NCBI GenBank assembly: GCA_046261875.1 | Contig: JBHENW010000024.1 | Location: forward strand, 955 to 64,954 | Direction: 5' to 3' | Length of the DNA stretch: 64,000 nucleotides | Source of the DNA: Thermoanaerobaculia bacterium | Lineage (GTDB): Bacteria > Acidobacteriota > Thermoanaerobaculia > UBA5066 > Gp7-AA6 | Shown: positions 12,701 through 37,787 of the stretch, one piece after another | Position numbering within the stretch: the stretch's first letter is position 1 | Layout: each line of letters opens with the position of its first letter | Translations under genes and position numbers: made by a program | Notes under the pieces: model-generated | Seen by the model: only the letters and a program-made list of their open reading frames with translations | Databases searched by the model: none | Told to the model about the DNA's origin: nothing

Positions 12701-15578
12701 GGGGGCGCCAGATCGCGACGGCTGCCCCGAGGGCAAGGGCGATGAGGGGCGCGGGGACCATGCGGCGGTAGAAGCCGCTCAGCTTCAGGTCCAGCCCGCT
12801 CTGCGCCTGCGCCGCGGTCACCCATTCGAGCAGGCGCCGCCGCGCGATCAAGCGGGCGAATGTGCGCACGGCGGCGTCCGTCATGAGGTACGCCTGGTAC
12901 GCGAGCAGCGTCAGGTTGATCGCCGCCTGTGAGACCGCCAGCGTCACGTCCCTGCCGAGCCCCGCGACGAAGCTTCGCTTGGAAATCCCGAGCCGGCTTG
13001 GTAAGAGCGACGCGATCAGGTGGAGCGCGCTCGGTCCCGCAATCGTGGCGACGATGAAAGAGGCCCACAGCTCCGGCGAGCCGCCCGGCAGGAGCCAGCT
13101 CGCGGCGAACGTCAGCACCGCGGCCGGCGCCGACAGCGTCCGGCGCAGGTTGTCGGCCATCTTCCACCGCGCGATGGCCGTGATGCCGCGGCGCCGACGG
13201 CCCTTCGCGTCGCGCGCGATGCCCAGGATCCATGGGAGGAGCTGCCAGTCCCCGCGCGCCCACCGGTGCTGGCGGGCGGCGGCGACTTCGTAATGGCCCG
13301 GAAAGCTCTCGAAGAGCTCCAGGTCGGATACGAGACCGGCCCGGGCGAAGAGACCTTCGAAGAGGTCGTGGGAGAGGAGGGAGTTCTCCGGCACACGGCG
13401 CGCGAGGGCCGTCTCGAACGCGTCCACCTCGTAGAGTCCTTTTCCTGTGTAGATGCCTTCCCCGAACAGGTCCTGGTAGACGTCGGAGGTCGCGAACGCG
13501 TACGGGTCGATACCCTGCGGCCCAGAAAACACACGCTGGTGCACCGTGCCGGGCCCGTGGAACGGAAGGGTCGTCGTCACGCGCGGCTGCAGCACGGCGT
13601 GCCCCTCGACGATGCGGTCCGCCGCCGGGTCGAAGACGGGGCGGTTCAAGGGGTGCGCGATCGTCCCGACGAGCCGGCGCGCGACCCCGCGGTTCAACCG
13701 CGTGTCGGCGTCCAGCGTGATGACGAAACGGACCCCGGGGGGAGGCGGCCCCGGTGACAGGAACGTCGTGTCCCGGGCGCCGCGCAGCCACCGATTGAGC
13801 TCGTGGAGCTTGCCGCGCTTGCGTTCCCAGCCGATCCACGACTTCTCCGACGCGTTCCAGACGCGGTGGCGATGGAGGAGAAGGAATCGCGGCCCCCCAC
13901 CTTGCGGGGGGGCCGGGTGGCGCGCGTTCAGCTCGGCGATCGCGGCGCGGGCGACCGCCAGCAGGAGCTCGTCCTCCGGTAGCGATTCCGACGGCGCGTC
14001 GACCCAGTCGGTCAGCAGCGCGAAGCGGATCGCCCCGTCGTCGTTGGCGAGGGCGTGGACCTCGAGGCGTCCGATGAGCGCGCGGATGTCCTCCTCGTCG
14101 GTCAAGAGAGCGGGCACCGCGACCAGCGTCGCGAGCTCCGGTGGCACCCCGTGCGCGAGCTCCAGCTTGGGAAGGCGCCTCGGCCCGATCAGATCGGTGA
14201 CGTCCCGGTTCACGACGGCCGTTGCCAGGTCGGAGGCCGGGACGAGCGCGAAGAGAGCGATCAGGAGGAGCGGGAGCCCCGTCATGCCGGTCGCGGCCGC
14301 GAGAACGACCGGCAGGGCGATGAGCGCGGCCGTCAGCACGAACACGCTCGTGACGTATCCGGGCGTGGCGAAGGCGACGAAGGCGCGCCGGAGCCAGCGC
14401 GCGGGCGGAACGCGGTACCCGAGCTCCTTCTCGAACGCCTCGCGCCCACGGGAGATCAGGTAGAAGCCGGGATCCGAGCTTCGCGCGTCCCCGCCGGCCG
14501 CGGCTCCCTCCGCCGCGGCCTCCCGGCCCTTCTCGGCGGCCCGCCGCGCGACCTCGAGCTCCGCGAGCCGGGAGCCCCGCGCCAGCTCCTCGACGGCGTG
14601 GCGATACCGGTCGCGCGTGGCGAAGTCCATTGCCGCCACGAGGGTTCCCTCGCGCAGCGCCGCTTCCACGAGGCTGACCTCCTCGAAGAAGGTCTCCCAG
14701 TCCGTCGAGGAGAGAAGGCGCATGCTCGTGATGACGTTGCGCACCGTCACGTGCGACGCGACCTGCTCCTGGTGCTCCTGCCGGACGAACTCCTCCGGCG
14801 TCGTGCCCTGCGCCGCGAGCCTCTCGTTCAGCCACGACGCGGCGGGGGTCGAGGCCGGGTCCCGGTCGCGGAGACGCTCGGCGAGTTGAACGGCGAAGGC
14901 GGTGGAGAGCGTCCCGGATTCGAGCTCGCGGAGCGCTTCGCGCGGCTTCTCGCCCGGGCCTCCGACCCCGAGGAGCACGTCGGCGAGCCGGTCGGCGCGC
15001 TCCCGGTCCGCTCGCCGCTGCACGATGTATTCGACGAGGCGGCGCAGGTTCTCGACGAGCACGAGTCGCAGCGAGATCGCGATCGCCCACAGCTCGCCGA
15101 TGGTCAGCGGCTGCACGCGCTGGTACGCCGTCACGAATCGGCGCAGCGCCTCCGCCTCGAATCGGCTGTCCGTGTGCTCGACGAACGCCCAGGCGATCCC
15201 GAGCACGCGGGGATACCCGGCGAGGGGCCCGTCCGCGAGCTTGGGCAGCTCGCGGTAATAGCTCGGCGGGAGATCTTCGCGGATCTCGCGCAGCTGCTCT
15301 TCCACGATGTGGAAGTTGTCCACGAGCCATTCCGCCGCCGGGGAGATCGCGCGCTCCTCCCGGATCGCCTGGCCGATCGCCCGGTAGGAAGCGAGCAGGA
15401 CGCGGTGGTTCTCGCGCAGCCGGGGGAGCAGCCGGCTCCCGCGGCGCTTGCCGGGCAGCACGCGATGGGTCGCGGCGAGCGATTCGGCGAACTCCTCGAG
15501 CCGCTCGAGAGAGAACAGCTCCCCGCGGATGGGCAGGTCGGCGGGATGGGCGGAGAGAAATACCGGAGGGGCGGCCAT
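6798..15578 (-). CDS. ndvB: cyclic beta-1,2-glucan synthase (NdvB/ChvB/Cgs; GT84 + GH94 domains), 2926 aa
   Basis: Size; conserved Cgs N-terminal region; multiple TM helices; GT84 region ([13 protein letters not shown]); C-terminal GH94 cellobiose-phosphorylase-like domain ([23 protein letters not shown]..., [13 protein letters not shown]..., [14 protein letters not shown]). Single uninterrupted 8.8-kb ORF, ATG start. Confidence 0.9.
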   Translation of the reverse strand: [2926 protein letters not shown]

Positions 15579-15703
15579 CAGGATCCCGACAAAGATATGA
15601 CGGGGACGAACCCCGCCCGCCCGCGCGTCATCGCAACGGGCCCGTTCCGCTCGCGGCGCGAGGGCCGCGGCCCGCTACCCGTTCGTCGCCGGTGCGACCC
15701 GGC

Positions 15704-17227
15704 TCACCGCCCCGCCGGCTCGACGCGGAAGACCCGCCCGGTCTTCGGGAACACCTTCATCGTCTTCTCGGTCGGGTTGAAGACGCCGAAGTCCAGGATG
15801 TACACGAGGCCGTCCGGGCCGATCTGGACGTCCACGGGCCTCTCGAGGCCGACCTCCAGGTCGAGACGCGAGGCCGGTTGGGGCGCGCCCGCGCCGCGGT
15901 TGCGCGCGAAGACGGTGCGGCGTCCCGTCTGCAGATCGACGGCTTCCACCTGGAAGCCCGTGCGGACGTCCGGGCGGACCGCGTCCGTCGTGGGCTTGAA
16001 GTCTCCCATCTCCGAGATCAGGAGCTGGCCCGACCAGCGGGAGAAAGGCCCCCCCGCCGGCACGACGGACATGCCGCCGAGCGCCGCGTGCGGCTCGGTG
16101 ACCGTGACGAGAAGCGATTTGTCGGGTGCCGCGAGCCCGCTCGCCGCGTGGTCGAAAACGAACTCCAGGCCCGAATGTCCCGGAGCGAGGAACTGCGCGG
16201 GCGCCCGGTGCTTGGGCGCCGTGACCGGCTCGAGGGCCCCGGAGTAATCCGGCCAGCCGTACCAGACGCCCGGCCGGACCCGATAGATCGCGTCGGGGTC
16301 ATCGAGGACCGGACGCGTGCCGCGGATGTCAGCGCCATGCATCCCAACGAGCAGCGTGCCGCGCGGGTCGAAGGCGAGCGCGACAGGGTTGCGGAATCCC
16401 CAGCCGACGAGCTCGGGCGTCGTCGCGCCGGCACGCAAACGGAAGATCGCGCCCGTGCACGGGACTTTCCCGGCGACCTGCGTCGCCGCCGATTCTCCGT
16501 AGGCCTGGTAGGCCCCCGTCGTCGCCTTGTCGTCGTCGGGATCTGTCAGCGCGTTGTCGTCGGTGAACGTCTTACCCGTCAGAACGACGTCGCGGCAGGG
16601 GATGTCCCGCGTCTTCGGACGCTTCTTCAGCCACTTCTGGTTGACCGGATCCTGCGAGGAGACGACGCCCGAGTTGGTCGCGCTCCCGACGCCGAAGTAG
16701 AGGCTCCCCTGGCCGTCGAATGCCAGGTAGTTCACCCAATGGTCGCCGTCGCCCGGCATCCCGCGGATGACGGGCTCGGCCGCTCCACCGGAGGGACGCA
16801 GCCGGCTGATCCCCCAGGTCCCGTCCTTCTCCTCGTGCGACAGATACAGCCAGCCGCCGCGGAACGCGAGCCCGACCGCCGTCTCGCCGGTCGGCGCTCC
16901 GGGGCCTTCCCAGCGGACCTCTTCGAGCTCGCCGTTCCCCGCGACCTTGAGAATCTTCGGCTTGAGCGTCGGGACGGCGACGCTGTGCGACTCGAGGATG
17001 TAGAGGCTGCCCTTGTCGTCCCAGGCCATCGAGCTCGGGAAGTTGAGGCCCTCGACGACCTGCACGGCGCGGTAGCCGTCCGGAACCTGGATGGCGTCGG
17101 CGGGCGCGACTTGCGCCTTGTAGCTCGCGGCCTGCTCCGCGCCGCGGGTGTCTAGCGTGCCGCCGCCGCAGCCGACCAGCGCGCCGCACGGCGCGAGGAG
17201 GAGTGCGGCCCGGAGCAGCGCTCTCAT
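15704..17227 (-). CDS. PQQ-dependent sugar/sorbosone dehydrogenase-like beta-propeller lipoprotein (SGDH family), paralog 1
   Basis: Lipobox signal MRALLRAALLLAPCGALVGC; beta-propeller motifs shared with paralog at 24998..26524 (WGFRNPVALAFDP.G.L, GVWYGWPD, YILDFGV). ATG 17227 overlaps the DUF2231 stop (ATGA). Confidence 0.65.
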   Translation of the reverse strand: MRALLRAALLLAPCGALVGCGGGTLDTRGAEQAASYKAQVAPADAIQVPDGYRAVQVVEGLNFPSSMAWDDKGSLYILESHSVAVPTLKPKILKVAGNGELEEVRWEGPGAPTGETAVGLAFRGGWLYLSHEEKDGTWGISRLRPSGGAAEPVIRGMPGDGDHWVNYLAFDGQGSLYFGVGSATNSGVVSSQDPVNQKWLKKRPKTRDIPCRDVVLTGKTFTDDNALTDPDDDKATTGAYQAYGESAATQVAGKVPCTGAIFRLRAGATTPELVGWGFRNPVALAFDPRGTLLVGMHGADIRGTRPVLDDPDAIYRVRPGVWYGWPDYSGALEPVTAPKHRAPAQFLAPGHSGLEFVFDHAASGLAAPDKSLLVTVTEPHAALGGMSVVPAGGPFSRWSGQLLISEMGDFKPTTDAVRPDVRTGFQVEAVDLQTGRRTVFARNRGAGAPQPASRLDLEVGLERPVDVQIGPDGLVYILDFGVFNPTEKTMKVFPKTGRVFRVEPAGR

Positions 17228-17722
17228 CGCGCGCCTCCCCTCGCTTCGCGCATGCCGATCTCGAGCGCTTCCGGGTCCTTGTTCTCCACGACGCCCACCT
17301 TGTGGTGATAGCTCAGGTTGCCGCCGAGCCAGCCCGAGACGCCGAGGAGCGCGAAGCCGAGGATCGACGTCCCGAGCGCGAGCGGCCACCTTCCCGTTTC
17401 GAGCGCCGCGTCCCCGCGCCGCATCCAGAAGGAGAGCGCGTAGAGCACGACGACGGCGACGTTGAGCCTCGCATGCCACGCGGCGAGACGCTTTCCCCGG
17501 GCGCTCATCGTCACGCCGAAATATTCGATCAGGCCGAAGACGGCCGCGAGCAGCGCGAAGGCGAGGCCCGCTCCGATGCAGACGTAGGAAAAGCGGTACC
17601 AGAAAGGATCCGACCCCCCGGCGTGGATCACGTCGCCGATGAGAGCGAGGAAGAATGCGCCGATGGGGATCGGCACGAGCATGGGGTGGATGGGGTGATC
17701 GCCGATGGCGGCCTTGCTCTTC
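17224..17722 (-). CDS. DUF2231-family integral membrane protein
   Basis: 4 TM helices, HPIHPMLVPIPIGAFF N-terminal motif typical of DUF2231; GGAGGGG RBS upstream of ATG 17722; translationally coupled to downstream SGDH. Confidence 0.6.
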
Positions 17723-17832
17723 ATGGTGGCCCCTCCGCTGGCGTCTCGCGGACGCGTTTTGGAGACAGGAGGATGCAAGACACGGACCGGTGATGGTGCC
17801 GCCCTTGCTTATGCTCCGAGCCTGAAGAAGAG

Positions 17833-20118
17833 ATGAAAAACGCCCGACCGGTTCTCGCGGCCGCTTTCCTGTGCGCATTCGCTTCGGGCGCGGGTCCGGC
17901 CGGGGCGGCGGAGGGACCGGGGGCGCTGCGCGGCGTGGTGGCCGACGAGGCGGGCCGGGCGGTGGCCGGGGCCAACGTGACCCTGGAGACTGCCCGCGGC
18001 CGGCCGCGGACGACGACGGACTCTGACGGCGGCTTTTCCCTCGAGGCTTCCGCTCCCGTAACCCTGCGGGTCGAAGCTCCCGGATTCCGCCCTCTGGAAC
18101 GGCGCGTGGAACCGGCCGATCTCGAGGCCGGCCTGCGTCTGGTGCTCGTGGCGGCCGGGGTGTCCGAACGACTCAGCGTCACGGCGACCCGAACGCCCGC
18201 CCGCCTGGCGGACACGGCGGCGAGCGTCGTCGTCCTGAGCTCGGAAGACCTGGCCTCTTCCGCGTCCCCCGCCCTGGACGACGCGTTGAGACAAGTCCCG
18301 GCTTTTTCGCTGTTCCGGCGGTCGAGCAGCCGGACGGCGAATCCGACCTCGCACGGCGTCTCGCTGCGCGGCGCGGGAGCCAGCGGCGCGAGCCGCGCGG
18401 TCGTGCTCGATGACGGCGTGCCGTTGAACGACCCGTTCGGCGGGTGGATCTACTGGGGGCGCACCCCGCGGGCGGCGGTCGAGAGAATCGAGGTACTGCG
18501 CGGCGGTGCGTCCGATCTCTACGGCAGCGCGGCTCTCGGGGGGGCCGTTCAGATGCTCCGGCGGAGCCCGGCCGATCCCTTTGCCGTGACCCTCGAGACG
18601 TCCTACGGATCACAGGACACTCCGGAGGCGTCGTTCTCCGCATCGGGCCGCCGGGACGGCTGGGGGGCCGTGCTGTCGGGCGAGGCTTTCCGGACCGGCG
18701 GCTACGTGCTCGTAGAGGAGGACGCGCGGGGACCGGTCGATGCGCGCGCCGCGTCGCGGCACGGTACCGTCGACCTGGCCGTCGAGCGCGGCGGCGGCGG
18801 CTCGCGGCTCTTCCTGCGCGGCTCGCGGTTCGAGGAGTCGCGTGAGAACGGAACCCCGCTCCAGGAGAATGACACGGAGAGCCTCCACCTCGCCGCGGGC
18901 GGCGACTGGAGGCTGGGCGGCGGCGGCCTCACGGCGCGGCTCCACGGCGCCGACCAGGATTTCCGCCAGACGTTCTCGGCGATCGCGGCGGACCGCGCGA
19001 CGGAGCGGCTGACGCGGCTCCAGCGGGTCCCCTCCGACGCGGCCGGAGCCGCGCTGCAATGGACGGGAGCCGCGGGTGGGCGGCACCTCCTGGTCGCGGG
19101 CGCGGAGGGACGGCAGGTCCGCGGAGAGAGCCGCGAGGAGGTTCTCACCGATGGCGGTTCGAGCTTCGTGGACGCGGGCGGCCGCGAGCGCACCGCCTCC
19201 GTCTTCCTGGAGGACATCGTCACCGCCGGCGCCCGCTGGACGCTGACGGCGGGGGTGCGCTTCGATCGCTGGTGGAACGCGGAGGCCCGATCGGCCACGC
19301 GCGCGGCGCGCGACGCAGCACCGGTCGTCACGCCACTGTCCGGCCGTTCGGAGACTGCCTGGAGCCCGCGGCTCTCGGCGCTCCATCGCCTCTCCGGCGC
19401 CGTCTCGCTGACCGTTTCCGCCTACCGGTCCTTCCGCGCCCCGACCTTGAACGAGCTGTATCGGACCTTCCGCGTCGGAAACGCCCTGACGCTGGCCAAC
19501 GAGGCGCTCGCGCCCGAGCGTTCCCGGGGCGTGGACGCGGGAGCGATCCTCTCGTCCGGCTCCGGCCGCCTCGGCGCCCGGGCGACCCTTTTCTGGATGG
19601 AGATCGAGGACGCCGTCGGCAACGTGACCCTCTCCGTGACCCCTTCGCTCATCACGCGCCGGAGACAGAACATCGGGGAGATCCGCACCCGGGGAACCGA
19701 GCTCGACTTCGACTGGCGCCCGACGGCGGGCTGGAAGCTGGCCGGCGGCTACCAGCTCGCGGACGCGACCGTCCGGTCGTCGCCCGCGGAGCCGGCTCTC
19801 GCCGGCCTGCGCGTCCCGCAGGTCCCCCGCCATCGCGTCTCGCTGCAAGCGGTTTATTCGAAACCCGCCCTGGCCGCGGCGGGGCTCTCCCTGCGCTGGA
19901 CCTCCAGCCAGTTCGACGACGACAAGAACCTCCTTCCCCTCGCGTCCTTCTGGACGGCGGACGCCGTCGTCTCCCGGAGCCTGTGGCGCGGCCTCGAGGG
20001 CTTCCTCGCCGTGGAGAACGTCTTCGACGAGCGCTACGAGATCGGCCGCACACCCGTGCGCACCCTGGGGCCGCCGAGGGCCCTCCGCGGCGGCCTGCGG
20101 CTGCGGATGCCGGACTGA
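17833..20118 (+). CDS. TonB-dependent receptor with N-terminal carboxypeptidase-regulatory-like domain
   Basis: Signal peptide; Cna-B/CarboxypepD_reg-like segment (GVVADEAGRAVAGANVTLE...DSDGGFSL); plug domain (VPLNDPFGGWIYWG); C-terminal beta-barrel ending in aromatic residue region. Confidence 0.85.
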   Translation: MKNARPVLAAAFLCAFASGAGPAGAAEGPGALRGVVADEAGRAVAGANVTLETARGRPRTTTDSDGGFSLEASAPVTLRVEAPGFRPLERRVEPADLEAGLRLVLVAAGVSERLSVTATRTPARLADTAASVVVLSSEDLASSASPALDDALRQVPAFSLFRRSSSRTANPTSHGVSLRGAGASGASRAVVLDDGVPLNDPFGGWIYWGRTPRAAVERIEVLRGGASDLYGSAALGGAVQMLRRSPADPFAVTLETSYGSQDTPEASFSASGRRDGWGAVLSGEAFRTGGYVLVEEDARGPVDARAASRHGTVDLAVERGGGGSRLFLRGSRFEESRENGTPLQENDTESLHLAAGGDWRLGGGGLTARLHGADQDFRQTFSAIAADRATERLTRLQRVPSDAAGAALQWTGAAGGRHLLVAGAEGRQVRGESREEVLTDGGSSFVDAGGRERTASVFLEDIVTAGARWTLTAGVRFDRWWNAEARSATRAARDAAPVVTPLSGRSETAWSPRLSALHRLSGAVSLTVSAYRSFRAPTLNELYRTFRVGNALTLANEALAPERSRGVDAGAILSSGSGRLGARATLFWMEIEDAVGNVTLSVTPSLITRRRQNIGEIRTRGTELDFDWRPTAGWKLAGGYQLADATVRSSPAEPALAGLRVPQVPRHRVSLQAVYSKPALAAAGLSLRWTSSQFDDDKNLLPLASFWTADAVVSRSLWRGLEGFLAVENVFDERYEIGRTPVRTLGPPRALRGGLRLRMPD

Positions 20119-20133
20119 GCGAGGAGCGGAAAC

Positions 20134-20640
20134 ATGAAAAGGCGAAACGATCCGTGGGCGGGCCTTCTCGCCGGACTGGCCGCCGGCCTCTGCGCGTCCT
20201 GGACGATGAACCAGTTCCAGTTCCTCTGGAACCGGTTCCGGTCGTATCAGCGGGAGATGCCTGAGGACGAGCAGGGCGAAGACACGACGGTGAGGACGGC
20301 GCGCGCGGTCTCCGTGGGGCTCTTCCGCCACGAGCTGTCGCAGAAAGAAGAGCGCTGGGCGGGGCCGCTCGTTCACTACGCGTTCGGCGCGGCCGTCGGA
20401 GGCCTCTACGGCGCGATCGCCGAGAAGGAGCCGCGCGTCACCGCGGGCGCCGGCATCCCGTTCGGGACCGCGTTCTGGCTGGTCGCGGACGAATCCGCCG
20501 TCCCGCTGCTCGGGCTCTCCGAGCCGCCCGGCCGTTACCCTCTTTCCGTCCACCTCTACGCGCTCGTTTCGCACTGGGTCTTCGGAGCGACGGCGGAGTT
20601 CGTCCGGCGCGCGCTCCGCGGGCGCCTTTCCCGCTTCTGA
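20134..20640 (+). CDS. hypothetical small membrane protein
   Basis: 168-aa ORF with 3-4 hydrophobic segments immediately downstream of TonB receptor; no recognisable catalytic motif. Confidence 0.45.
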   Translation: MKRRNDPWAGLLAGLAAGLCASWTMNQFQFLWNRFRSYQREMPEDEQGEDTTVRTARAVSVGLFRHELSQKEERWAGPLVHYAFGAAVGGLYGAIAEKEPRVTAGAGIPFGTAFWLVADESAVPLLGLSEPPGRYPLSVHLYALVSHWVFGATAEFVRRALRGRLSRF

Positions 20641-20644
20641 CGAT

Positions 20645-21787
20645 TCAGCCGCCGGCCGGGGAGTCGGACGCCGCGTCCAGCCAGCCTCCCCGGAAACCGG
20701 CGCGCCGCAGACCCCGGACGAGCGGGACGGAATTCCGCATGAGCTTCCAGATCATCTCCGAGCGCTCGTTCTCGATCATCACGACCACGGGTCCCTGATC
20801 GAGGCCGTAGTAGCCGCGCGCGACCCACCCCGTCCCTCCCTCCGCCCGGAACGAGGGATTGAAGCTGCACATGAACCCGTACCGGCTCCGCATCTGGGGA
20901 TAGCGCTCATTGAAGAACGCGATCGTCGGCCGGACGATCTCGGGCGCGAACGGCAGCGAAGTCACCGCGGCCCATGGCGAGATCGTCCCGTCGTCCGGAC
21001 CGAACGGAACTCCGCGGGCCCGGTAGTCGTAGAAGCGCCGTGTCACGCCGCCGATGCGCCGGACGACGTTGCCCGGCCCGTCGCTCGCCGTCACTCCCCA
21101 GCAGCGGTCGCCGTACGCGGTGAAGCCGTGGGGGTTCCTCGTCGCGTATCGCTGCTGGACGTAGGTCGCGCGGCGGCTGTTCTCGAAATAGTCCGTCTTC
21201 TTCGCGCGCATGAACGCGTCGCGGATGCCGCGGAAGTCGATCCAGATGTGCGAAAGCTGATGCGTGAAGAGCGGCCCGGAGTAGAGGAACCGTTCCCCGT
21301 ACAGGTTCTTCCAGCGGTAGGTCTTCGCCCACGCGTCGTAACTGCCGGGACCGATCGCGTGCCTCCGAGAACCGAGCGCGAGGACGTAGAGGATCAGCGC
21401 CTCGTTGTATCCGTTCCAGGACGTGGGAAGGAACCCGGACTCCGGGTGCCACCCATGGGAGATGAGGCCATTCGGCCTCAGGGTCCAGCGCCAGTCCGCG
21501 CGCTCGTAGAGCCGTTCGCTCGTCTGCCGGATCTCCCGCTCGATCGGCGAGTCCCCGTCGAAGAAGGCGCCGGCCGTGATGGCCCCGCCGAGAAGGATCC
21601 CGGAATCCATGGTGGACAGCTCGCACCCGTGCGCGCGCCGCCCCGTCCGCATGTCGAGAAAGTGATAGTAGAACCCGCGGTTGCCCGTCGCGTCGGCCTC
21701 TACCCCCTGCGGGCTTCGATCGAAGAAGCGCAGAGTCGTCGCCGTGCGCTCAGCGGCCTCCGTCCGGGTCAGCCAACCCCGCTTCAC
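20645..21787 (-). CDS. DUF3131/GH144-like (alpha/alpha)6 glycoside hydrolase, putative endo-beta-1,2-glucanase; the in-frame region 21788..~21960 lacks stops and looks like genuine coding sequence (see findings)
   Basis: Motifs GFYYHFLDMRTG, WNGYNEALILYVLALGS, YSGPLFTHQLSHIWIDFRG, YYGLDQGPVVVMIENERSEMIWKLM resemble the DUF3131/GH144 family as I recall it. GTG at 21787 is the first canonical start. Confidence 0.5.
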   Translation of the reverse strand: MKRGWLTRTEAAERTATTLRFFDRSPQGVEADATGNRGFYYHFLDMRTGRRAHGCELSTMDSGILLGGAITAGAFFDGDSPIEREIRQTSERLYERADWRWTLRPNGLISHGWHPESGFLPTSWNGYNEALILYVLALGSRRHAIGPGSYDAWAKTYRWKNLYGERFLYSGPLFTHQLSHIWIDFRGIRDAFMRAKKTDYFENSRRATYVQQRYATRNPHGFTAYGDRCWGVTASDGPGNVVRRIGGVTRRFYDYRARGVPFGPDDGTISPWAAVTSLPFAPEIVRPTIAFFNERYPQMRSRYGFMCSFNPSFRAEGGTGWVARGYYGLDQGPVVVMIENERSEMIWKLMRNSVPLVRGLRRAGFRGGWLDAASDSPAGG

Positions 21788-21995
21788 GGCGACCGGGTAG
21801 CACGTCAGGGCGAACCCGACCGCCGCGATGCTGCAGGGGGCGCCGTACCGCGTGTTGTCGGGGATCAGACCGTTGCCGGGGTTCGCCTCGTGAAGGAAAT
21901 AGCCGAAGGTCTCGCGCTGCAGCTTCTCTAGCTCGCCTTCGGCCGACTCGGGCGCGGACGGGCGCCGCCCACGCTCCCGCGCGCGCCCGACCGTC

Positions 21996-23387
21996 TCAGC
22001 CCTCCTCGTCCAGCGCGGCCGCCGCGCCCTGCACCGCCTCCGCGAAAGTCGGGTGGATGAACGTCGCGTCCCGCACGACCTGGTACGACCCCTTCGCGTT
22101 CATCAGGGTCACGTACACGTGAACCATCTCGGCGGCCTCGGCCGCCAGGATCGCCGCGCCGAGGATCCGGCCGGACTTTCGATCCGCGAGGAGCTTGATG
22201 AAGCCGCCGGGCTCCCCGACCTCCCGCGCCTTGCCGTTCTTCGGCATCTCGAAGCGCGCGATACGCAGGGGGCGTCTCGCCCTGCGGGCCTCCGCCTCCG
22301 TCATACCGACCCGGCCGAGCTGGGGGTCCGTGTAGATCGCGTAAGGCAGGACGCGGTCCGTCGTCCGCGATCGGTCGCCGGCGAGCTGCGAGAGGAGGAC
22401 CCGGTAGTCGTCCCATGCCGTGTGGGTGAACATCGGCCCGCCGCGCACGTCCCCGGCGGCCCAGACGCCGCGGACGCGCGTCGCCAGCCGCCGGTCCACG
22501 CGGAGAAACCCGTCGCGCGAGCTCCGCAGGCCGATCTTTCCGAGGCCGAGGTCGTCCGTGTTCGCGCGGCGGCCGACCGCCACGAAGAGGTGCGAGCCCT
22601 CCAGGCGGACGCTGCCGCCGTCCTGGCGGATCTGTAGCTGGACTCCCTCTCCAGCGCGGCGCGCCCGCTCGACCCGGGCATTGAGCCGGAACGCGATCTC
22701 TTCGGATTCCAGGAACTGGCGCAGCGCGCCGGCGACCTCGGGGTCCTCACGGCCGGCGACCTCGGGAGACTCGTCGATGACCGTGACCCGCGCGCCCATC
22801 CGCCGGTAGAACTGCGCCATCTCGAGGCCGGTGTAGCCGCCCCCCAGGATGAGCAGGTGCTCCGGCAGCTCCTTGCCGTCCAGCCAGTTCTCCGAGTCGA
22901 TGCGAGGGAGCTTCGACAGCCCCGGGACTGAAGGGATGCGGCTGCGCGTGCCGGTATTGATGACCACCCGCCGCGCCCGGACGTCGGTCGCGCCGACCCG
23001 GAGGCGGAAGCCCTTTCTGTCCCGGCCTTCGAAGCGGGCATGGCCCTCCAGGAGCCGCGGGGCTTCGCCGCCGTGAAAGCCCTCCCGCAGGCCCGCCCGG
23101 AACTGGGTGACGACGTCCCGCGCGCGAGCGAGGACCCGGGAGAAGTCCGGCTTGACGGCGAGGATGCTCAGCCCGAACTCGTCGCCGCGGCGGGCGAGCT
23201 GGGCAACCCGGGCGGAAGCGATCACGGCTTTGGTGGGAGAGCACCCGAAGTTGACGCAGGAGCCGCCGAGGTCCTGGCGCTCCGCGAGCGCCACATGCAT
23301 TCCTTTCTTTGCCAGGGCGTGGGCGAGCGGAATTCCCGCCTGTCCGCCGCCGATCACGAGGACGTCGAACGTCTCCGGATGAGCCAA
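21996..23387 (-). CDS. FAD-dependent pyridine nucleotide-disulfide oxidoreductase (dihydrolipoamide dehydrogenase / mercuric reductase family)
   Basis: FAD site VLVIGGGQAGIPLA, redox-active disulfide GGSCVNFGCSPTK, NAD site LLILGGGYTGLEMAQ, C-terminal dimerisation domain with HPT motif (FIHPTFAE). Confidence 0.8.
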   Translation of the reverse strand: MAHPETFDVLVIGGGQAGIPLAHALAKKGMHVALAERQDLGGSCVNFGCSPTKAVIASARVAQLARRGDEFGLSILAVKPDFSRVLARARDVVTQFRAGLREGFHGGEAPRLLEGHARFEGRDRKGFRLRVGATDVRARRVVINTGTRSRIPSVPGLSKLPRIDSENWLDGKELPEHLLILGGGYTGLEMAQFYRRMGARVTVIDESPEVAGREDPEVAGALRQFLESEEIAFRLNARVERARRAGEGVQLQIRQDGGSVRLEGSHLFVAVGRRANTDDLGLGKIGLRSSRDGFLRVDRRLATRVRGVWAAGDVRGGPMFTHTAWDDYRVLLSQLAGDRSRTTDRVLPYAIYTDPQLGRVGMTEAEARRARRPLRIARFEMPKNGKAREVGEPGGFIKLLADRKSGRILGAAILAAEAAEMVHVYVTLMNAKGSYQVVRDATFIHPTFAEAVQGAAAALDEEG

Positions 23388-23402
23388 GGGTCCCCCGCGG
23401 AG

Positions 23403-24590
23403 CTAGGCGGACTCCCGGGGAACAGCTCCCGCCGCCCGCTCGACCTCCGCGGCGTCGAGGACGAGCCCCGCGTCGAGGCTCGCCTGGCGGATCCGCGCTT
23501 CGAGGCGCGCCCGCTTCCTGTGGGCGTCGCGCAGGCGCGCCGCCGGATCGGAGGCCTCCAGGCGCCGCACGCTCTCCGGCCGGGGCAGGGGCGGCCGCGG
23601 AGTCGTCTGTCCGGTGAGCAGGCGCTCGAGGCGCAGGCCGACGACCTCGAAGGCGCGATAGGTCCCGCTCGAGAACCGCTCCAGCGGGTTGCCGCGCTCG
23701 CGGGCGAGCTTCAGGAGCGCATCGAGGGACTCCTGCTCGATCGCGAGGAGCTCGGACCGTTCCCGGATCAGCCGGGTGATGCGCGCCGGCAGCTCACGGC
23801 TCCGGCGGAGCCGCTCGAGCGCGCAGGCCTCGTCGATCAGGTCGATCTCTTTGTCGGGCCGCTTTCGCTCGCGGTACTCGCCTCCGCGCGCCTCCGAGAG
23901 GTCCAGGGCGCGGTCCAGCGCGGCGTCCGTGATCGCCATCACGTGGTGCATCTCGAGGCGGCGGCGGCGCGCCTGGAGGACCTCCAGGGTCTGCTCCCGC
24001 GTCAGCTCGACGACGTCCACCGGATGGAACCGCCGCTCGAGCGCCGCGTCCGGCCGGATGTACATCTCGTACTCGTTGCGGGTCGTCGCCCCGATGACGC
24101 GCAGCGCTCCCCGCGAGAGGGCCGGCTTCAGCATGTTCGCGGCGTCCAGCGGCTGTCCCATCGCGGAGCCGGCCCCGATGAGGTTGTGGAGCTCGTCTAC
24201 GAAGAGGATCACGTTCGGATCGCGGCTCGCCTGGTCGATGACCCCCTGGAGGCGCTTCTCGAACTGGCCGCGGAAGGTCGTGCCCGCGATCATGTCGATG
24301 TGGGAAAGCATGAGGACGCGGGCGCGCGCGAGCGACGGAGGGACCCGGCCCGAGACGATCCGTTGCGCGAGCCCTTCGGCGATCGCCGTCTTTCCCACCC
24401 CCGCGTCGCCGACGAGGACCGGGTTGTTCTTCGACTGCCGCAGCAGGATCGCGACGACCCGCTCGATCTCGCGGTCGCGGCATCGCACCGGCTCGAGCTC
24501 TTCCCGCAGGGCCGCGTCGGTCAGGTCGCGTGTGTAGCTCTCCAGCGCATTGCGCTCCATCCCGGGCAGGGGCAGCTCGAACTCGGGCAT
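23403..24590 (-). CDS. AAA+ ATPase related to the first nucleotide-binding domain (D1) of ClpA/ClpB, lacking N-domain and D2
   Basis: YTRDLTDAALREELEPVRCRDREIERVVAILLRQSKNNPVLVGDAGVGKTAIAEGLAQRIVSG ... ILFVDELHNLIGAG ... MLKPALSRGALRVIGATT..EY..YI.PDAALERRF aligns with ClpB D1; only 395 aa and ends in a coiled-coil/Arg-rich tail. Confidence 0.7.
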   Translation of the reverse strand: MPEFELPLPGMERNALESYTRDLTDAALREELEPVRCRDREIERVVAILLRQSKNNPVLVGDAGVGKTAIAEGLAQRIVSGRVPPSLARARVLMLSHIDMIAGTTFRGQFEKRLQGVIDQASRDPNVILFVDELHNLIGAGSAMGQPLDAANMLKPALSRGALRVIGATTRNEYEMYIRPDAALERRFHPVDVVELTREQTLEVLQARRRRLEMHHVMAITDAALDRALDLSEARGGEYRERKRPDKEIDLIDEACALERLRRSRELPARITRLIRERSELLAIEQESLDALLKLARERGNPLERFSSGTYRAFEVVGLRLERLLTGQTTPRPPLPRPESVRRLEASDPAARLRDAHRKRARLEARIRQASLDAGLVLDAAEVERAAGAVPRESA

Positions 24591-24638
24591 ACAGCGGGAG
24601 TATAGAAACTGGGAGGGGGAAGGGACAGCCGGCGGGCG

Positions 24639-25001
24639 TCAGCGGCCGTGCTTTCGCACGGCGACGACGTACTCCAGGATGTCGTCGAGCTCCTCGGGGC
24701 TGATTTCCTCCCTGGAGAACCTGGGCATCGCTCCGAGTCCCGCGCGCACCTGGGTCCGCATCAGGAACTTCGGCGCCGGCTTGTTAGAAAGGGCCGGGCT
24801 GAACCCGAACTCCCCGCCCGTATGGCACTGGTTGCAGTGCCTCATGTAGAGGACCTCGCCGCGCTGGAGCTGGAGCGTATTCAAAGGGATCGGGCCGACC
24901 ACGGGCTCGCTGCGCCGGACGGAGCATCCGGAAAAGAGAACAGCGGCCACAGCGGCGGCCGCGAGCGCGGCGAGCGCCCATCCGGTCCGGTTCTTCCTCA
25001 C
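24639..25001 (-). CDS. small mono-heme cytochrome c lipoprotein
   Basis: Signal/lipobox (ALAALAAAAVAAVLFSGCS), heme-binding CNQCH motif, distal Met (GAMPRF). GTG start at 25001 overlaps the upstream SGDH stop (GTGA). Confidence 0.65.
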   Translation of the reverse strand: MRKNRTGWALAALAAAAVAAVLFSGCSVRRSEPVVGPIPLNTLQLQRGEVLYMRHCNQCHTGGEFGFSPALSNKPAPKFLMRTQVRAGLGAMPRFSREEISPEELDDILEYVVAVRKHGR

Positions 25002-26524
25002 GGTTTCGGCTCCGCGATGCTGGAGCGGCCCGTGATCCGCCAGAGCACGCCCGTGTTCTGCCGCGGCTGGGGGTTCTCGCCGATCGTCATGACCCCGAAG
25101 TCCACGACGTAGAGCGCCGAGCCGCTCGGGTCGAAGCGGGCGGCCACGGGCCGCTCGAGACCGCCCCCGCCGATGCGCGAAGCGGGCCCGTTCTTGGGAC
25201 CCTTGTTGGCGGCGAAGTCCTTCACGACACCGGTCCGCGGATCGACGCGAACGACCTTGAAGCCCACCGGGGAAAGGGTCTTTCCCGTGCCCGGCGACAT
25301 GTCCCCGAAGAGCGCGACGAACAGTTGTCCGACGTGCCCGAAGGCTTCGCTGCGAGAGAAGTCGAAGCCGTTGGCGGAGGAATGGACTCCGAAAAGAGCC
25401 GAAGGCTTCGGCGGCTTGCCGGGATGGGACGAGAGGAGAAGCTCCGGCTTCGGGCCCCCCGGCGGATCGAAGTGATCGCCGTCGTCGAGTCGCCGGTCCC
25501 CGTGGTGGTCGGGCCAGCCATACCAGGCTCCCGGGGTGATCTCCCAGAGAACGTCGCCGGTCCCGAACACGGGACGGCTGCCGCGGACGTCGTAGCTGTT
25601 CTCGGTCACGTAGAGTCGCCCGGCCGGCGAGAAGGCCAGGCCGAACGGGTTGCGGAGCCCCCAGGCGACGAGCTCGGGCCGGCCACCCTCCGCGGGCACC
25701 TTCATCACGGCGCCCGTGCAGGGAATCTCCCCCTTCACGATCTGGCCCGCCCGGGAGGGCGTTCCGAACGGCAGATACGCGCCGGTCTGGACCGCCGCAT
25801 TGGAACCGGGCTGGAGGACGTTCGGCGTCTCGAAGTTCCTCCCGGCGAGGGTCACCTCGCGGCAGGGAACGTCGTGAAATTTCGGGTGACGGGCGAGCCA
25901 CCCGAACTTCGCGCTGTCCTCTCCGACGATCCCCGAATTCGTCGCCGTGCCCTGGCCGAAGTAGATCCAGCCGTCCGGGCCCACCGCGGGGCCGTTCGTG
26001 TGGTGGTCGCCGACGCTCGGAAGCTTCTCGACGAGCGTCGAGATCTCTCCCCCGGGAGTGATTCGCAGGATCCGTCCGCCGTCGCGCTCGCCTCCTTCGG
26101 CGACGTAGAAGCTCCCGCCATGGAAAACGACGCCGTTCCACGGGCCGTTGTTCCCGCCGGAAGCGACGGTCGTCGTCCGGCCGTCTTCCTCGACGCGCAA
26201 GAGCCGCGGCGTGGCCCACACCTCCCCGTAGGAGTAACCGGCCTCGACCACGTGCGGGCGGCCGGACGCGTCGAAGGCGACGGCCGAAGGGAGGTTCAGC
26301 CCCTGCGCGATCGCTTCGATCCCGTAGCCTTCCGGGAGCGCCACGCCATCGGGGTGGACGACGCGAGGACCCTGGAAGGTCGTCTGCCCGCCCCCCGAAG
26401 ACGCCCGCATGCTGAAGCACGCGGAGGCGGCGATCACGCCGGGAAGCAGGATGCCGAGCGCAGCCGACCTCCACCGGAATCGCGTCTCAATCGCCATGAC
26501 GCGCACGGGAAGTGCAACGGCCAT
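24998..26524 (-). CDS. PQQ-dependent sugar/sorbosone dehydrogenase-like beta-propeller protein (SGDH family), paralog 2
   Basis: Paralogous to 15704..17227 (LAWGLRNPFGLAFSPAGRLYV, GAWYGWPD, YVVDFGV); N-terminal signal region (LGILLPGVIAASAC). Start could also be the Met at 26497. Confidence 0.7.
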   Translation of the reverse strand: MAVALPVRVMAIETRFRWRSAALGILLPGVIAASACFSMRASSGGGQTTFQGPRVVHPDGVALPEGYGIEAIAQGLNLPSAVAFDASGRPHVVEAGYSYGEVWATPRLLRVEEDGRTTTVASGGNNGPWNGVVFHGGSFYVAEGGERDGGRILRITPGGEISTLVEKLPSVGDHHTNGPAVGPDGWIYFGQGTATNSGIVGEDSAKFGWLARHPKFHDVPCREVTLAGRNFETPNVLQPGSNAAVQTGAYLPFGTPSRAGQIVKGEIPCTGAVMKVPAEGGRPELVAWGLRNPFGLAFSPAGRLYVTENSYDVRGSRPVFGTGDVLWEITPGAWYGWPDHHGDRRLDDGDHFDPPGGPKPELLLSSHPGKPPKPSALFGVHSSANGFDFSRSEAFGHVGQLFVALFGDMSPGTGKTLSPVGFKVVRVDPRTGVVKDFAANKGPKNGPASRIGGGGLERPVAARFDPSGSALYVVDFGVMTIGENPQPRQNTGVLWRITGRSSIAEPKP

Positions 26525-37748: not shown

Positions 37749-37787
37749 TCGCAGCAAGGCGATTCATTTCGCGCAAGGAGAACGAGC

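What the first reader, a model, noticed from the sequence alone, without database searches (positions are those of the whole stretch)
15704..26524. Two paralogous PQQ-type sugar dehydrogenase beta-propellers, each translationally coupled to a different small electron-transfer-like partner
Paralog 1 (15704..17227) is a lipoprotein whose ATG overlaps the stop of a DUF2231 four-TM protein (17224..17722). Paralog 2 (24998..26524) has its TGA overlapped by the GTG start of a mono-heme cytochrome c lipoprotein (24639..25001). Soluble PQQ sugar dehydrogenases need an electron acceptor. The cytochrome c pairing is the expected one, and by analogy the DUF2231 protein may be an alternative membrane-bound acceptor. 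Paralog 1 sits between the glucan synthase and a TonB receptor.
Basis: partly seen in the sequence, partly recalled or inferred. Interest (0 to 1): 0.5.

Follow-up and report, generated by a model that had tools for sequence, protein, structure and literature searches.

The report
Paired sugar-dehydrogenase propellers with redox partners
Two diverged copies of a periplasmic six-bladed, quinoprotein-like dehydrogenase each overlap by four bases with a small partner gene: one partner is a cytochrome c, a pairing already described, and the other is an uncharacterised four-helix membrane protein (DUF2231) that recurs with this enzyme type and is probably a membrane electron-transfer module.

Summary
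On the minus strand, DUF2231 (17724-17224) overlaps propeller 1 (17227-15704) by ATGA. Propeller 2 (26524-24998) overlaps a mono-haem cytochrome c lipoprotein (25001-24639) by GTGA. The propellers are 34% identical over their full length.

Both belong to a distinct, uncharacterised clade of the sGDH/AA12 fold. The catalytic His, the Arg-Asn dyad, the Ca-loop Asp and one C-terminal Arg are invariant in about 320 relatives. Three sGDH PQQ ligands are replaced. PQQ dependence is therefore likely but unproven.

The propeller-cytochrome c unit recurs in 20 of 23 paralog-2-type loci from many phyla, and a 2026 preprint describes the same kind of pairing. DUF2231 sits directly upstream of paralog-1-type propellers in 11 of 19 informative loci and in two distant lineages. 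Its presence tracks an [H/Q]GAD active-site motif, against N-x-[Y/F]-D in the cytochrome-c-linked forms.

Other DUF2231 proteins carry a C-terminal cytochrome c or Rieske domain, which argues for an electron-transfer role. However, most close DUF2231 homologues are not next to propellers, and no cofactor could be shown.

Verdict: a new variant of a known kind, of moderate interest.

The parts
17224..17724 (-). DUF2231 membrane protein, 166 aa: a four-helix transmembrane bundle with an invariant HPxHP motif (H10, H13) and invariant H84, D31, R102 and W132; H141 is >=90% conserved. It is module 1, gene 1.
   Evidence: Pfam PF09990 at 122.6 bits. AF2 pLDDT 84, four long helices. Conservation. ATG at 17724 preceded by GGAGG.
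15704..17227 (-). Propeller 1: a lipoprotein and six-bladed sGDH/AA12-like propeller of the [H/Q]GAD type. Key residues are H163, R279-N280, H297-G-A-D300, R302, R305, D312, H380, D409 and R463. It is module 1, gene 2, and its ATG overlaps the DUF2231 stop (ATGA at 17227-17224).
24998..26524 (-). Propeller 2: a lipoprotein paralog (34% identity) of the N-x-[Y/F]-D type. Key residues are H174, R291-N292, N309-S-Y-D312 and R458. It is module 2, gene 1.
24639..25001 (-). Mono-haem class I cytochrome c lipoprotein, 120 aa. CNQCH lies at 24822-24836 and the Met ligand (GAMP) at 24723-24734. The GTG start overlaps the propeller 2 stop (GTGA at 25001-24998). It is module 2, gene 2.
17833..20118 (+). 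TonB-dependent receptor, divergent from DUF2231. Orthologues lie next to both propeller types in other genomes. It is not a PqqU orthologue.
   Evidence: Pfam. Synteny. NCBIfam PqqU 86 bits against a cut-off of 1200. PDB.
20134..20640 (+). DUF1440 membrane protein. It follows paralog-1-type propellers in L001, L003 and L018.
20645..21970 (-). GH144 beta-1,2-glucanase homologue. In relatives it is the last gene of a DUF2231-propeller-pyr_redox-GH144 operon. The start codon is unclear.
   Evidence: PDB 8XUL (XcSGL) E 8e-124. Enzyme activity reported in PMC12102758. Synteny. Start problem.
21996..23387 (-). Cytoplasmic class I FAD/NAD(P)H disulfide oxidoreductase (active-site CVNFGC). It follows paralog-1-type propellers in relatives.
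6798..15578 (-). Cyclic beta-1,2-glucan synthase (GH94 plus a GH144-like middle domain), 125 nt downstream of propeller 1 on the same strand.
   Evidence: A terminator-like hairpin lies at 15617-15599. A glucan synthase also lies next to DUF2231 in L095.

Best explanation
**What the two modules are**

Both propellers are periplasmic, lipid-anchored enzymes of one distinct clade of the sGDH/AA12 six-bladed quinoprotein superfamily. They most likely bind PQQ and a divalent metal, and oxidise a sugar or glycan hydroxyl.

Propeller 2 (N-S-Y-D type) passes its electrons to its own co-translated mono-haem cytochrome c lipoprotein, and from there to the respiratory chain.

Propeller 1 (H-G-A-D type) lies in a beta-1,2-glucan, TonB-receptor gene neighbourhood. 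It works with the co-translated four-helix membrane protein DUF2231. DUF2231 carries a cluster of invariant histidines on the side of the membrane where, in other lineages, a cytochrome c or Rieske domain is fused. DUF2231 is therefore most likely a membrane-integral electron-transfer partner, taking the place of the soluble cytochrome.

**Shown**
- Gene structure, paralogy and fold.
- Conservation of the catalytic residues.
- Conserved adjacency and conserved 4-nt overlaps.
- The link between partner type and active-site motif.
- DUF2231 fusions to redox domains.

**Inferred**
- PQQ binding.
- The substrate.
- That DUF2231 holds a redox cofactor, which cofactor it is, and the direction of electron flow.
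For: **Fold and active site**
- AF2 pLDDT is 94.5.
- Foldseek top 22 PDB hits are all PQQ enzymes (3DAS, 6I1Q, 6JT5, 1CQ1, 2ISM, 2G8S, 3A9G, 7CDY), with E from 1e-13 to 1e-9.
- hhalign against YliI gives 95% probability, E 3.8e-8. It aligns H163 with the catalytic His, R279-N280 with the RN dyad, H297-G298 with HG, and R463 with the first Arg of RIR.
- D300 sits at the spacing of the Ca-ligand Asp of CcPDH (D451) and TrAA12 (D242).
- All these residues are invariant in about 320 sequences.
- All 83 members tested match Pfam GSDH.

**Module 2 (propeller 2 and cytochrome c)**
- A cytochrome c follows in 20 of 23 loci that are >=50% identical to paralog 2, from Deinococcota, Myxococcota, Bacteroidota, Nitrospirota, Verrucomicrobiota and Proteobacteria.
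- The junction is [A/G]TGA in 12 of 21 loci.
- The same arrangement appears in L168.
- The best PDB relative of the cytochrome is the cytochrome subunit of p-cresol methylhydroxylase.

**Module 1 (DUF2231 and propeller 1)**
- DUF2231 lies directly upstream in 11 of 19 informative paralog-1-type loci, and upstream of the distant propellers in L050 and L055.
- The junction is [A/G]TGA in 10 of 13 loci.
- Propeller-linked DUF2231 proteins mostly form one subclade.
- The two modules lie in tandem in L007, L010, L016, L086 and L087.

**Partner type tracks the motif at residues 297-300**
- N-type propellers have cytochrome c, cupredoxin or Cu/Zn-SOD-like partners or fusions.
- H/Q-type propellers have DUF2231 or transmembrane anchors.

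**DUF2231 as an electron-transfer module**
- It is fused to cytochrome c in P0412, and to Rieske domains in L059, P0470 and P0482.
- In L059 the gene order is propeller, cytochrome c, DUF2231::Rieske.
Against: **PQQ site**
- Pfam GSDH is matched only marginally and over one stretch.
- TIGR03606 scores 23 bits against a cut-off of 434.
- sGDH ligands Q231, K377 and R408 are replaced by V/F, G and V.
- Several of the nine CcPDH signature residues could not be mapped or differ.
- No pqq genes were found among the window ORFs scanned.

**DUF2231**
- Only 5 of 52 metagenomic loci of close homologues have a propeller downstream.
- Other homologues are coupled to a PF04120 'low affinity iron permease' or sit in unrelated contexts.
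- The conserved residues are the same in coupled and uncoupled DUF2231 proteins.
- The positive-inside rule weakly favours the opposite topology, and the fused Rieske domains look like cytoplasmic ferredoxins.
- Eight of 19 paralog-1-type loci lack an adjacent DUF2231.
Confidence: 0.45

Rival explanations
1. DUF2231 is a metal-handling inner-membrane protein (Fe, Cu or another cation; transport, reduction or delivery), not an electron acceptor for the propeller. It would sit in the locus because the TonB receptor, DUF2231 and the propeller together import and insert the enzyme's metal or cofactor.
For: - The invariant residues are three to four His plus Asp and Asn at or within the membrane.
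- A recurrent translationally coupled pair of DUF2231 with a PF04120 'low affinity iron permease' is seen in L084 and L111-L115.
- DUF2231 lies directly upstream of the orthologous TonB receptor in L089 and L122, and TonB receptors lie next to both propeller types.
- The 2026 preprint links six-bladed PQQ enzymes with TBDT-mediated metal uptake.
- In L167 a secreted His-rich small protein replaces DUF2231.
Against: - Fusions of DUF2231 to cytochrome c and to Rieske domains point to electron transfer, not transport.
- A four-helix protein is small for a transporter.
- The TonB receptor is not assignable to any metal or to PQQ.
Confidence: 0.2
2. DUF2231 is a transmembrane conduit that brings electrons from the cytoplasm to the periplasmic propeller. 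Propeller 1 would then be an electron-consuming enzyme rather than a dehydrogenase feeding the respiratory chain. The arrangement would resemble MsrQ-MsrP or STEAP.
For: - The fused Rieske domains resemble cytoplasmic Rieske ferredoxins (BphF E 2.5e-10, no disulfide cysteines).
- The positive-inside count favours an N-in/C-in topology.
- A cytoplasmic FAD/NAD(P)H oxidoreductase follows the propeller in the operon of relatives (L166, L002, L003, L018).
- The top Foldseek hits, though not significant, are STEAP and cytochrome b561.
Against: - The DUF2231::cytochrome c fusion P0412 requires a periplasmic C-terminus.
- All invariant histidines lie on one face, so there is no second redox site to span the membrane.
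- The propeller keeps the dehydrogenase-type catalytic His and RN dyad.
- The flavoprotein has a CxxxxC disulfide centre typical of disulfide or metal reductases, and it may belong with the cytoplasmic GH144 gene instead.
Confidence: 0.12
3. The propellers are not PQQ enzymes. They would use another cofactor or only a metal, or act as binding or lyase-type proteins. The partners would then reflect something other than re-oxidation of PQQH2.
For: - Similarity to GSDH is only marginal, and TIGR03606 is far below its cut-off.
- Three sGDH PQQ ligands are replaced, while the family has its own invariant residues R302, R305, D312, H380, D409, N443 and E462.
- The non-PQQ protein HHIP is the next-best fold match.
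- No pqq genes were seen in the window.
- Family members are also fused to fasciclin or Cu/Zn-SOD-like domains.
Against: - The catalytic His, RN dyad, Ca-loop Asp and C-terminal Arg are invariant in about 320 sequences.
- The top 22 structural matches are all PQQ enzymes.
- A dedicated cytochrome c or cupredoxin partner implies redox chemistry.
- R302 and R305 could replace the lost basic ligands.
- PQQ can be imported, so pqq genes are not required.
Confidence: 0.15
4. The DUF2231-propeller adjacency has no direct functional meaning. A common small membrane gene would simply have been carried along in an operon.
For: - DUF2231 is a large family (4828 clusters at 50% identity), and most members lie in other contexts.
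- Eight of 19 orthologous propeller loci lack it.
Against: - The 4-nt overlap is conserved in 10 of 13 loci.
- The coupling is present in lineages as distant as Gemmatimonadales (L050, L055).
- The propeller-linked DUF2231 proteins form a subclade.
- The coupling correlates with the HGAD motif.
Confidence: 0.08

Closest known systems
Bacterial six-bladed PQQ propellers with adjacent periplasmic cytochrome c (Voutsinos, Robinson, Grinter, Banfield, bioRxiv 10.64898/2026.07.10.737718)
   Same: - Six-bladed sGDH/AA12-like periplasmic enzymes in many phyla, including Acidobacteria.
- An adjacent mono-haem cytochrome c predicted to dock near the PQQ.
- Association with TonB-dependent transporters and carbohydrate-active enzyme clusters.
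   Different: - The preprint's nine-residue CcPDH signature and its NERD...D and NGRD...D metal motifs are not evident here. The window proteins have NSYD and HGAD.
- DUF2231, Rieske fusions and lipoprotein anchoring are not mentioned (0 occurrences).
Soluble PQQ glucose / aldose sugar dehydrogenases (A. calcoaceticus sGDH 1C9U/1CQ1; E. coli YliI/Asd 2G8S)
   Same: - The fold.
- The catalytic His, the Arg-Asn dyad, the HG of the Ca loop (propeller 1) and the first C-terminal Arg.
- Periplasmic location.
   Different: - Sequence identity is only 14-18%.
- A roughly 50-residue insertion follows blade 2, and a 7-residue insertion with invariant R302 and R305 follows the Ca loop.
- Q231, K377 and R408 are replaced.
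- The window proteins are lipoproteins.
- sGDH and YliI have no co-translated partner. From my own knowledge, cytochrome b562 has been proposed as the acceptor for sGDH.
Fungal AA12 PQQ dehydrogenases (CcPDH 6JWF/6JT5, TrAA12 6H7T/6I1T)
   Same: - They are among the four best fold matches.
- The Ca site is built from a main-chain carbonyl plus an Asp side chain at RN+18 and RN+20. Propeller 2 has N-S-Y-D against CcPDH N-S-L-D.
- CcPDH carries its own cytochrome domain as acceptor.
   Different: - The cytochrome of CcPDH is a fused haem b domain, not a separate c-type lipoprotein.
- Other PQQ-contacting residues (E539, E560, W563, N564) are not recognisably conserved.
Membrane-bound quinoprotein glucose dehydrogenase (mGDH) and periplasmic-enzyme/small membrane partner pairs such as MsrP-MsrQ (analogy, from general knowledge)
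   Same: A periplasmic catalytic domain is coupled to a small helical membrane module that links it to the membrane redox pool.
   Different: - mGDH is eight-bladed with a fused five-helix anchor.
- MsrQ is a six-helix haem b protein of the ferric-reductase family.
- DUF2231 matches neither family.
PchC, cytochrome c subunit of p-cresol methylhydroxylase (1DII_C)
   Same: It is the best solved relative of the window cytochrome c (E 1.8e-6), and it is a small dedicated c-type acceptor subunit of a periplasmic dehydrogenase.
   Different: Its partner is a flavoprotein, not a propeller, and it is not a lipoprotein.

Membership tests
sGDH / Asd family (Pfam PF07995 GSDH; NCBIfam TIGR03606) | Six-bladed beta-propeller fold of sGDH | tested here: met
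   AF2 pLDDT 94.5. The top 22 Foldseek PDB hits are sGDH, Asd or AA12 enzymes, with TM-score (target-normalised) 0.54-0.73.
sGDH / Asd family (Pfam PF07995 GSDH; NCBIfam TIGR03606) | Score above the curated family thresholds | tested here: inconclusive
   PF07995 scores 31.8 and 25.8 bits against a cut-off of 25, but covers only profile positions 168-227 of 332. TIGR03606 scores 23 bits against 434.55 and is not met. All 83 relatives hit GSDH at E<=0.01.
sGDH / Asd family (Pfam PF07995 GSDH; NCBIfam TIGR03606) | Catalytic base His (sGDH His144) and the Arg228/Asn229 dyad | tested here: met
   H163/H174 and R279-N280/R291-N292 align to YliI by hhalign. They are invariant in about 320 sequences.
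sGDH / Asd family (Pfam PF07995 GSDH; NCBIfam TIGR03606) | PQQ-carboxylate ligands Gln231, Lys377 and Arg408, and Arg406 | tested here: not met
   Q231 becomes V/F, K377 becomes G408 and R408 becomes V465. Only the Arg406 equivalent (R463) is kept. The residue roles are from my own knowledge of the sGDH structure and from PMC6881810.
sGDH / Asd family (Pfam PF07995 GSDH; NCBIfam TIGR03606) | Binds PQQ and Ca2+ and oxidises aldoses | not testable with these tools
   This needs ligand-aware modelling or biochemistry.
AA12-like bacterial PQQ-6-beta enzymes (nine-residue CcPDH signature of the 2026 preprint) | R273, H285, R430, N431, E539, E560, W563, N564 and R622 all present | tested here: inconclusive
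   Equivalents of R430, N431 and R622 are present. By spacing only, E539, E560, W563 and N564 correspond to H380, E/Q406, D409 and F410. R273 and H285 cannot be mapped without a superposition.
AA12-like bacterial PQQ-6-beta enzymes (nine-residue CcPDH signature of the 2026 preprint) | Active-site metal loop (CcPDH N448-S-L-D451; Ln-type NERD...D or NGRD...D) | tested here: inconclusive
   At identical spacing from the RN dyad, propeller 2 has N-S-Y-D (Ca-type, like CcPDH) and propeller 1 has H-G-A-D. Neither has the proposed lanthanide motif.
PVC-type haem-binding CxxCH quinohaemoproteins (TIGR02604 + TIGR02603) | Propeller domain above the cut-off, fused to a C-terminal CxxCH domain | tested here: not met
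   TIGR02604 scores 41 and 49 bits against a cut-off of 122. The cytochrome is a separate gene.
Class I c-type cytochrome (PF13442 / PF00034) | CxxCH haem-attachment motif, distal Met and an export signal | tested here: met
   PF13442 scores 53 bits against a cut-off of 27. CNQCH, GAMPRF and a lipoprotein signal are present.
DUF2231 (PF09990) | Full-length match above the cut-off; four TM helices; N-terminal HPxHP motif | tested here: met
   The match scores 122.6 bits against 26.4 over profile positions 2-138 of 139. The AF2 model is a four-helix bundle.
Known membrane cytochromes b / ferric-reductase-type domains (PF01292, cytochrome b561, STEAP/MsrQ) | Sequence or fold match, and paired His ligands on two helices within the membrane | tested here: not met
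PqqU (YncD) PQQ transporter, tested for the adjacent TonB receptor | NCBIfam equivalog score | tested here: not met
   NF041535 scores 86 bits against a cut-off of 1200. YncD is no better than FhuA or PiuA in the PDB search.

The most novel reading that the evidence does not exclude
DUF2231 would be a previously unrecognised family of small membrane-integral electron-transfer proteins. Its cofactor would be bound by the invariant HPxHP/His84 cluster on the periplasmic face. The family would serve as the dedicated membrane acceptor of the HGAD-type six-bladed quinoprotein dehydrogenases, and elsewhere would be wired to fused cytochrome c or Rieske domains. That would make the pair a two-component analogue of membrane-bound glucose dehydrogenase, here tied to beta-1,2-glucan metabolism.
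Probability: 0.3. Interest if true: 0.65.

Novelty: new variant of a known kind. Interest (0 to 1): 0.45.

Why it matters
Six-bladed PQQ dehydrogenases are very widespread, yet their physiological electron acceptors are mostly unknown.

The cytochrome c module here adds a clean, phylum-spanning example of a pairing that has only just been described. The DUF2231 module offers a testable candidate for a second, membrane-bound route. It would also give a first functional handle on a domain of unknown function with thousands of members: 4828 clusters at 50% identity.

The link between the active-site motif (N-x-Y-D against H-G-A-D) and the partner type gives a simple rule for sorting these enzymes. 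The link to beta-1,2-glucan genes suggests a substrate class to try.

Tried and rejected
1. An exact-sequence lookup of propeller 1 in the contig index found nothing, although the same protein is in the homologue database as P0001.
2. Direct sequence searches of the PDB were dominated by designed 'Pizza' propellers and gave only weak sGDH hits. I switched to fold search and to hhalign against YliI taken from the E. coli genome.
3. Literature searches for DUF2231, PF09990, COG4244 and IPR019251 found nothing functional.
5. The idea that the C-terminal multi-TM domain of the Acidimicrobiales propellers is related to the window's DUF1440 was rejected (E 0.12).
6. The idea that the TonB receptor is PqqU was rejected.
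7. The small secreted His-rich protein upstream of the L167 propeller is not recurrent.
8. Apparent DUF2231-propeller 'fusions' (P0003, P0369, P0495) are deletion or frameshift read-throughs, not real fusions.
9. I first mapped CcPDH His285 onto the catalytic His. PMC6881789 shows the catalytic His is His363, so that mapping was dropped.
10. The positive-inside rule suggested a cytoplasmic His cluster. The later finding of a cytochrome c fusion outweighs it, and I report the conflict rather than resolve it.
11. The paper by Southall et al. on YliI could not be retrieved.

Full report
**1. What is in the sequence**

The window is about 70% G+C. It matches a metagenome-assembled Thermoanaerobaculia (Acidobacteriota) genome. 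The proteins are 100% identical to NCBI entries named 'sorbosone dehydrogenase family protein' and 'DUF2231 domain-containing protein', on a 77-kb contig.

The minus strand carries, in order:
- DUF2231, 17724-17224, 166 aa.
- Propeller 1, 17227-15704, 507 aa.
- After a 125-nt gap, a 2926-aa cyclic beta-1,2-glucan synthase.

Further along the same strand are:
- An M1 peptidase.
- Propeller 2, 26524-24998, 508 aa.
- Cytochrome c, 25001-24639, 120 aa.
- A ClpB-like AAA protein.
- A class I FAD disulfide oxidoreductase.
- A GH144 glucanase homologue.

A TonB-dependent receptor and a DUF1440 gene lie between the two modules on the plus strand. Both 4-nt overlaps, ATGA and GTGA, were read directly. 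The DUF2231 start is at 17724, not 17722. Both propellers and the cytochrome have lipoprotein-type signals.

**2. The propellers**

The two are 34% identical over their whole length (E 5e-73). Each has hundreds of close relatives, and a pattern scan of one genome per species found 534 loci.

Family models give only a marginal hit:
- Pfam GSDH scores 31.8 and 25.8 bits against a cut-off of 25, over about 60 residues.
- There are sub-threshold hits to DUF7133, to TIGR02604 and to ScyE.
- TIGR03606 is far below its cut-off.
- All 83 relatives tested nevertheless hit GSDH.

The AlphaFold2 model is confident (pLDDT 94.5, pTM 0.92). Its 22 best PDB matches are all PQQ-dependent sGDH, Asd or AA12 enzymes, with the non-PQQ protein HHIP next. 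Profile comparison with E. coli YliI, taken from the K-12 genome, gives 95% probability.

| sGDH / AA12 residue | Propeller 1 | Propeller 2 | Status |
|---|---|---|---|
| Catalytic His (sGDH H144) | H163 | H174 | aligned to YliI |
| Arg-Asn dyad (sGDH R228/N229) | R279-N280 | R291-N292 | aligned to YliI |
| HG of the Ca loop | H297-G298 | N309-S310 | aligned to YliI (propeller 1) |
| Ca-ligand Asp (CcPDH D451, TrAA12 D242) | D300 | D312 | same spacing from the RN dyad |
| First Arg of the C-terminal RxR | R463 | R458 | aligned to YliI |

The published residue numbers are from PMC6881810 and PMC6881789.

In an alignment of 322 sequences the following positions are invariant or nearly so: H163, R279, N280, D300, R302, R305, D312, H380, D409, N443, E462 and R463. 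This is therefore a real, conserved active site and not a scaffold propeller.

Against a textbook sGDH site, Q231, K377 and R408 are replaced by V/F, G and V. Two invariant arginines in a family-specific 7-residue loop (R302, R305) may compensate. That is an inference, because I had no access to the model coordinates.

**3. The cytochrome c module**

In 80 related genome loci, a CxxCH ORF homologous to the window cytochrome starts within a few bases of the propeller stop. This holds in 20 of the 23 loci that are >=50% identical to paralog 2, across at least eight phyla. In 12 of 21 loci the start codon overlaps the TGA stop exactly as in the window. L168 shows the same arrangement in called genes.

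All of these cytochromes are lipoproteins with a conserved Cys-(Gly)-Ser-Ala-Arg-Arg-Ser-Glu-Pro start. The closest solved relative is the cytochrome subunit of p-cresol methylhydroxylase.

A July 2026 preprint reports adjacent mono-haem or di-haem cytochromes c for bacterial six-bladed PQQ enzymes. It also reports their association with TonB transporters and carbohydrate gene clusters. This half of the finding is therefore correct but already known in kind.

**4. The DUF2231 module**

DUF2231 lies directly upstream of paralog-1-type propellers in 11 of 19 loci with enough upstream DNA. It also lies upstream of distant propellers in two further MAGs, L050 (unclassified) and L055 (Gemmatimonadales). 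The [A/G]TGA overlap is kept in 10 of 13 loci. In L166 the called genes form DUF2231, propeller, pyr_redox and GH144 with 4-nt overlaps.

In five loci the two modules are contiguous: propeller-2-like, cytochrome c, DUF2231, propeller-1-like. A gap of about 230-280 nt separates the two units.

The partner type tracks residues 297-300:

| Motif at 297-300 | Partners or fusions seen |
|---|---|
| N-x-[Y/F]-D | cytochrome c; fused cupredoxin, Cu/Zn-SOD-like or fasciclin domains |
| [H/Q]-G-[A/M/F/I]-D | DUF2231; C-terminal transmembrane anchors |

Seen from the DUF2231 side, the coupling is a minority state. Only 5 of 52 metagenomic loci of close homologues have a propeller downstream. Others are coupled to a PF04120 'low affinity iron permease' or lie next to unrelated genes. 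The propeller-linked DUF2231 proteins mostly form one subclade, but they share the same conserved residues as the rest.

**5. What DUF2231 might be**

The AF2 model is a four-helix transmembrane bundle (pLDDT 84). The invariant residues are H10 and H13 (HPxHP, just before TM1), H84 (start of TM3), D31, N88, R102 and W132, with H141 (after TM4) in >=90% of sequences. All four histidines lie on the same membrane face.

The most informative evidence is domain fusion:
- In L059 (Parafilimonas) the gene order is propeller, cytochrome c, DUF2231::Rieske.
- A profile search of 1.84 billion representatives found 4828 DUF2231 clusters. Among the longer top hits, two more are Rieske fusions (P0470, P0482).
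- One hit (P0412) is DUF2231, a proline-rich linker and a mono-haem cytochrome c.

Two different electron-transfer domains at the same position argue that DUF2231 is a membrane module of electron-transfer chains.

A c-type cytochrome must be periplasmic. The C-terminus, and with it the His cluster, should therefore face the periplasm, where the propeller lipoprotein is. This conflicts with a weak positive-inside count and with the ferredoxin-like character of the fused Rieske domains. I regard the cytochrome c constraint as the stronger evidence, but the conflict remains open.

**6. Context and possible substrate**

The GH gene is a close homologue (E 8e-124) of XcSGL, a GH144 beta-1,2-glucanase with measured activity. 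In relatives, this gene and the flavoprotein directly follow the paralog-1-type propeller.

In the window the propeller is followed by the cyclic beta-1,2-glucan synthase, and in L095 a glucan synthase precedes DUF2231. TonB receptors orthologous to the window's receptor flank both propeller types, but this receptor is not PqqU.

A role in oxidising beta-1,2-glucan-derived sugars is a reasonable guess. It is only a guess.

**7. Verdict**

The cytochrome c pairing is ordinary for this newly described enzyme class.

The DUF2231 pairing is, as far as the searchable literature shows, undescribed. Four things support it: conserved synteny, conserved overlap, the motif correlation and the redox-domain fusions. 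Its mechanism remains inferred. I rate it a new variant of a known kind, with interest 0.45.

Noticed in passing
window 20645-22099 (-): Homology of the GH144 glucanase gene to its orthologue (65% identity) begins near nt 21952. There is no in-frame ATG, GTG or TTG between 22099 and 21787, just after the TGA of the upstream flavoprotein gene (21998-21996). The cause is either a non-canonical start (CTG) or a frameshift or assembly indel.
   Followed up: partly
window 37749-38552 (+): A DUF4386 gene is split into two contiguous in-frame ORFs (Pfam profile positions 1-102 and 113-209) by a TAG codon at 38157-38159. This could be a pseudogene, a sequencing error or read-through.
   Followed up: partly
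L034, L060, L038, L049, L042/L045/L080 (related loci): Other members of the propeller family carry C-terminal fusions: Cu/Zn-superoxide-dismutase-like domains, a cupredoxin, a fasciclin domain, or a roughly 200-aa multi-helix membrane domain with no clear family.
   Followed up: partly
L084 6001-6983; L111-L115: Close DUF2231 homologues form a recurrent overlapped pair with a PF04120 'low affinity iron permease' protein. This is a second conserved DUF2231 partnership of unknown meaning.
   Followed up: partly
L167 8412-8996: In one relative the gene upstream of the propeller is a 194-aa secreted protein instead of DUF2231. It has a low-complexity linker and a small His-rich C-terminal domain (GQGHLHYQVDGG...GDHTIKV), with no family match. 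It did not recur in the other loci.
   Followed up: yes
L171 652-1994; P0366, P0378, P0386: DUF2231 occurs as tandem duplicates within one protein, and as a plain DUF2231 gene overlapping a DUF2231::Rieske gene. This hints that the four-helix unit works as a dimer.
   Followed up: no
window 23403-24590 (-): A 395-aa AAA protein corresponding only to the first nucleotide-binding domain of ClpB/ClpA follows the cytochrome c gene. This neighbour is not conserved in any related locus.
   Followed up: partly
window 15599-15617 (-): A terminator-like hairpin lies between the propeller 1 stop and the glucan synthase start. DUF2231 and propeller 1 may therefore form a separate two-gene transcript. The T-tract is weak.
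   Followed up: no
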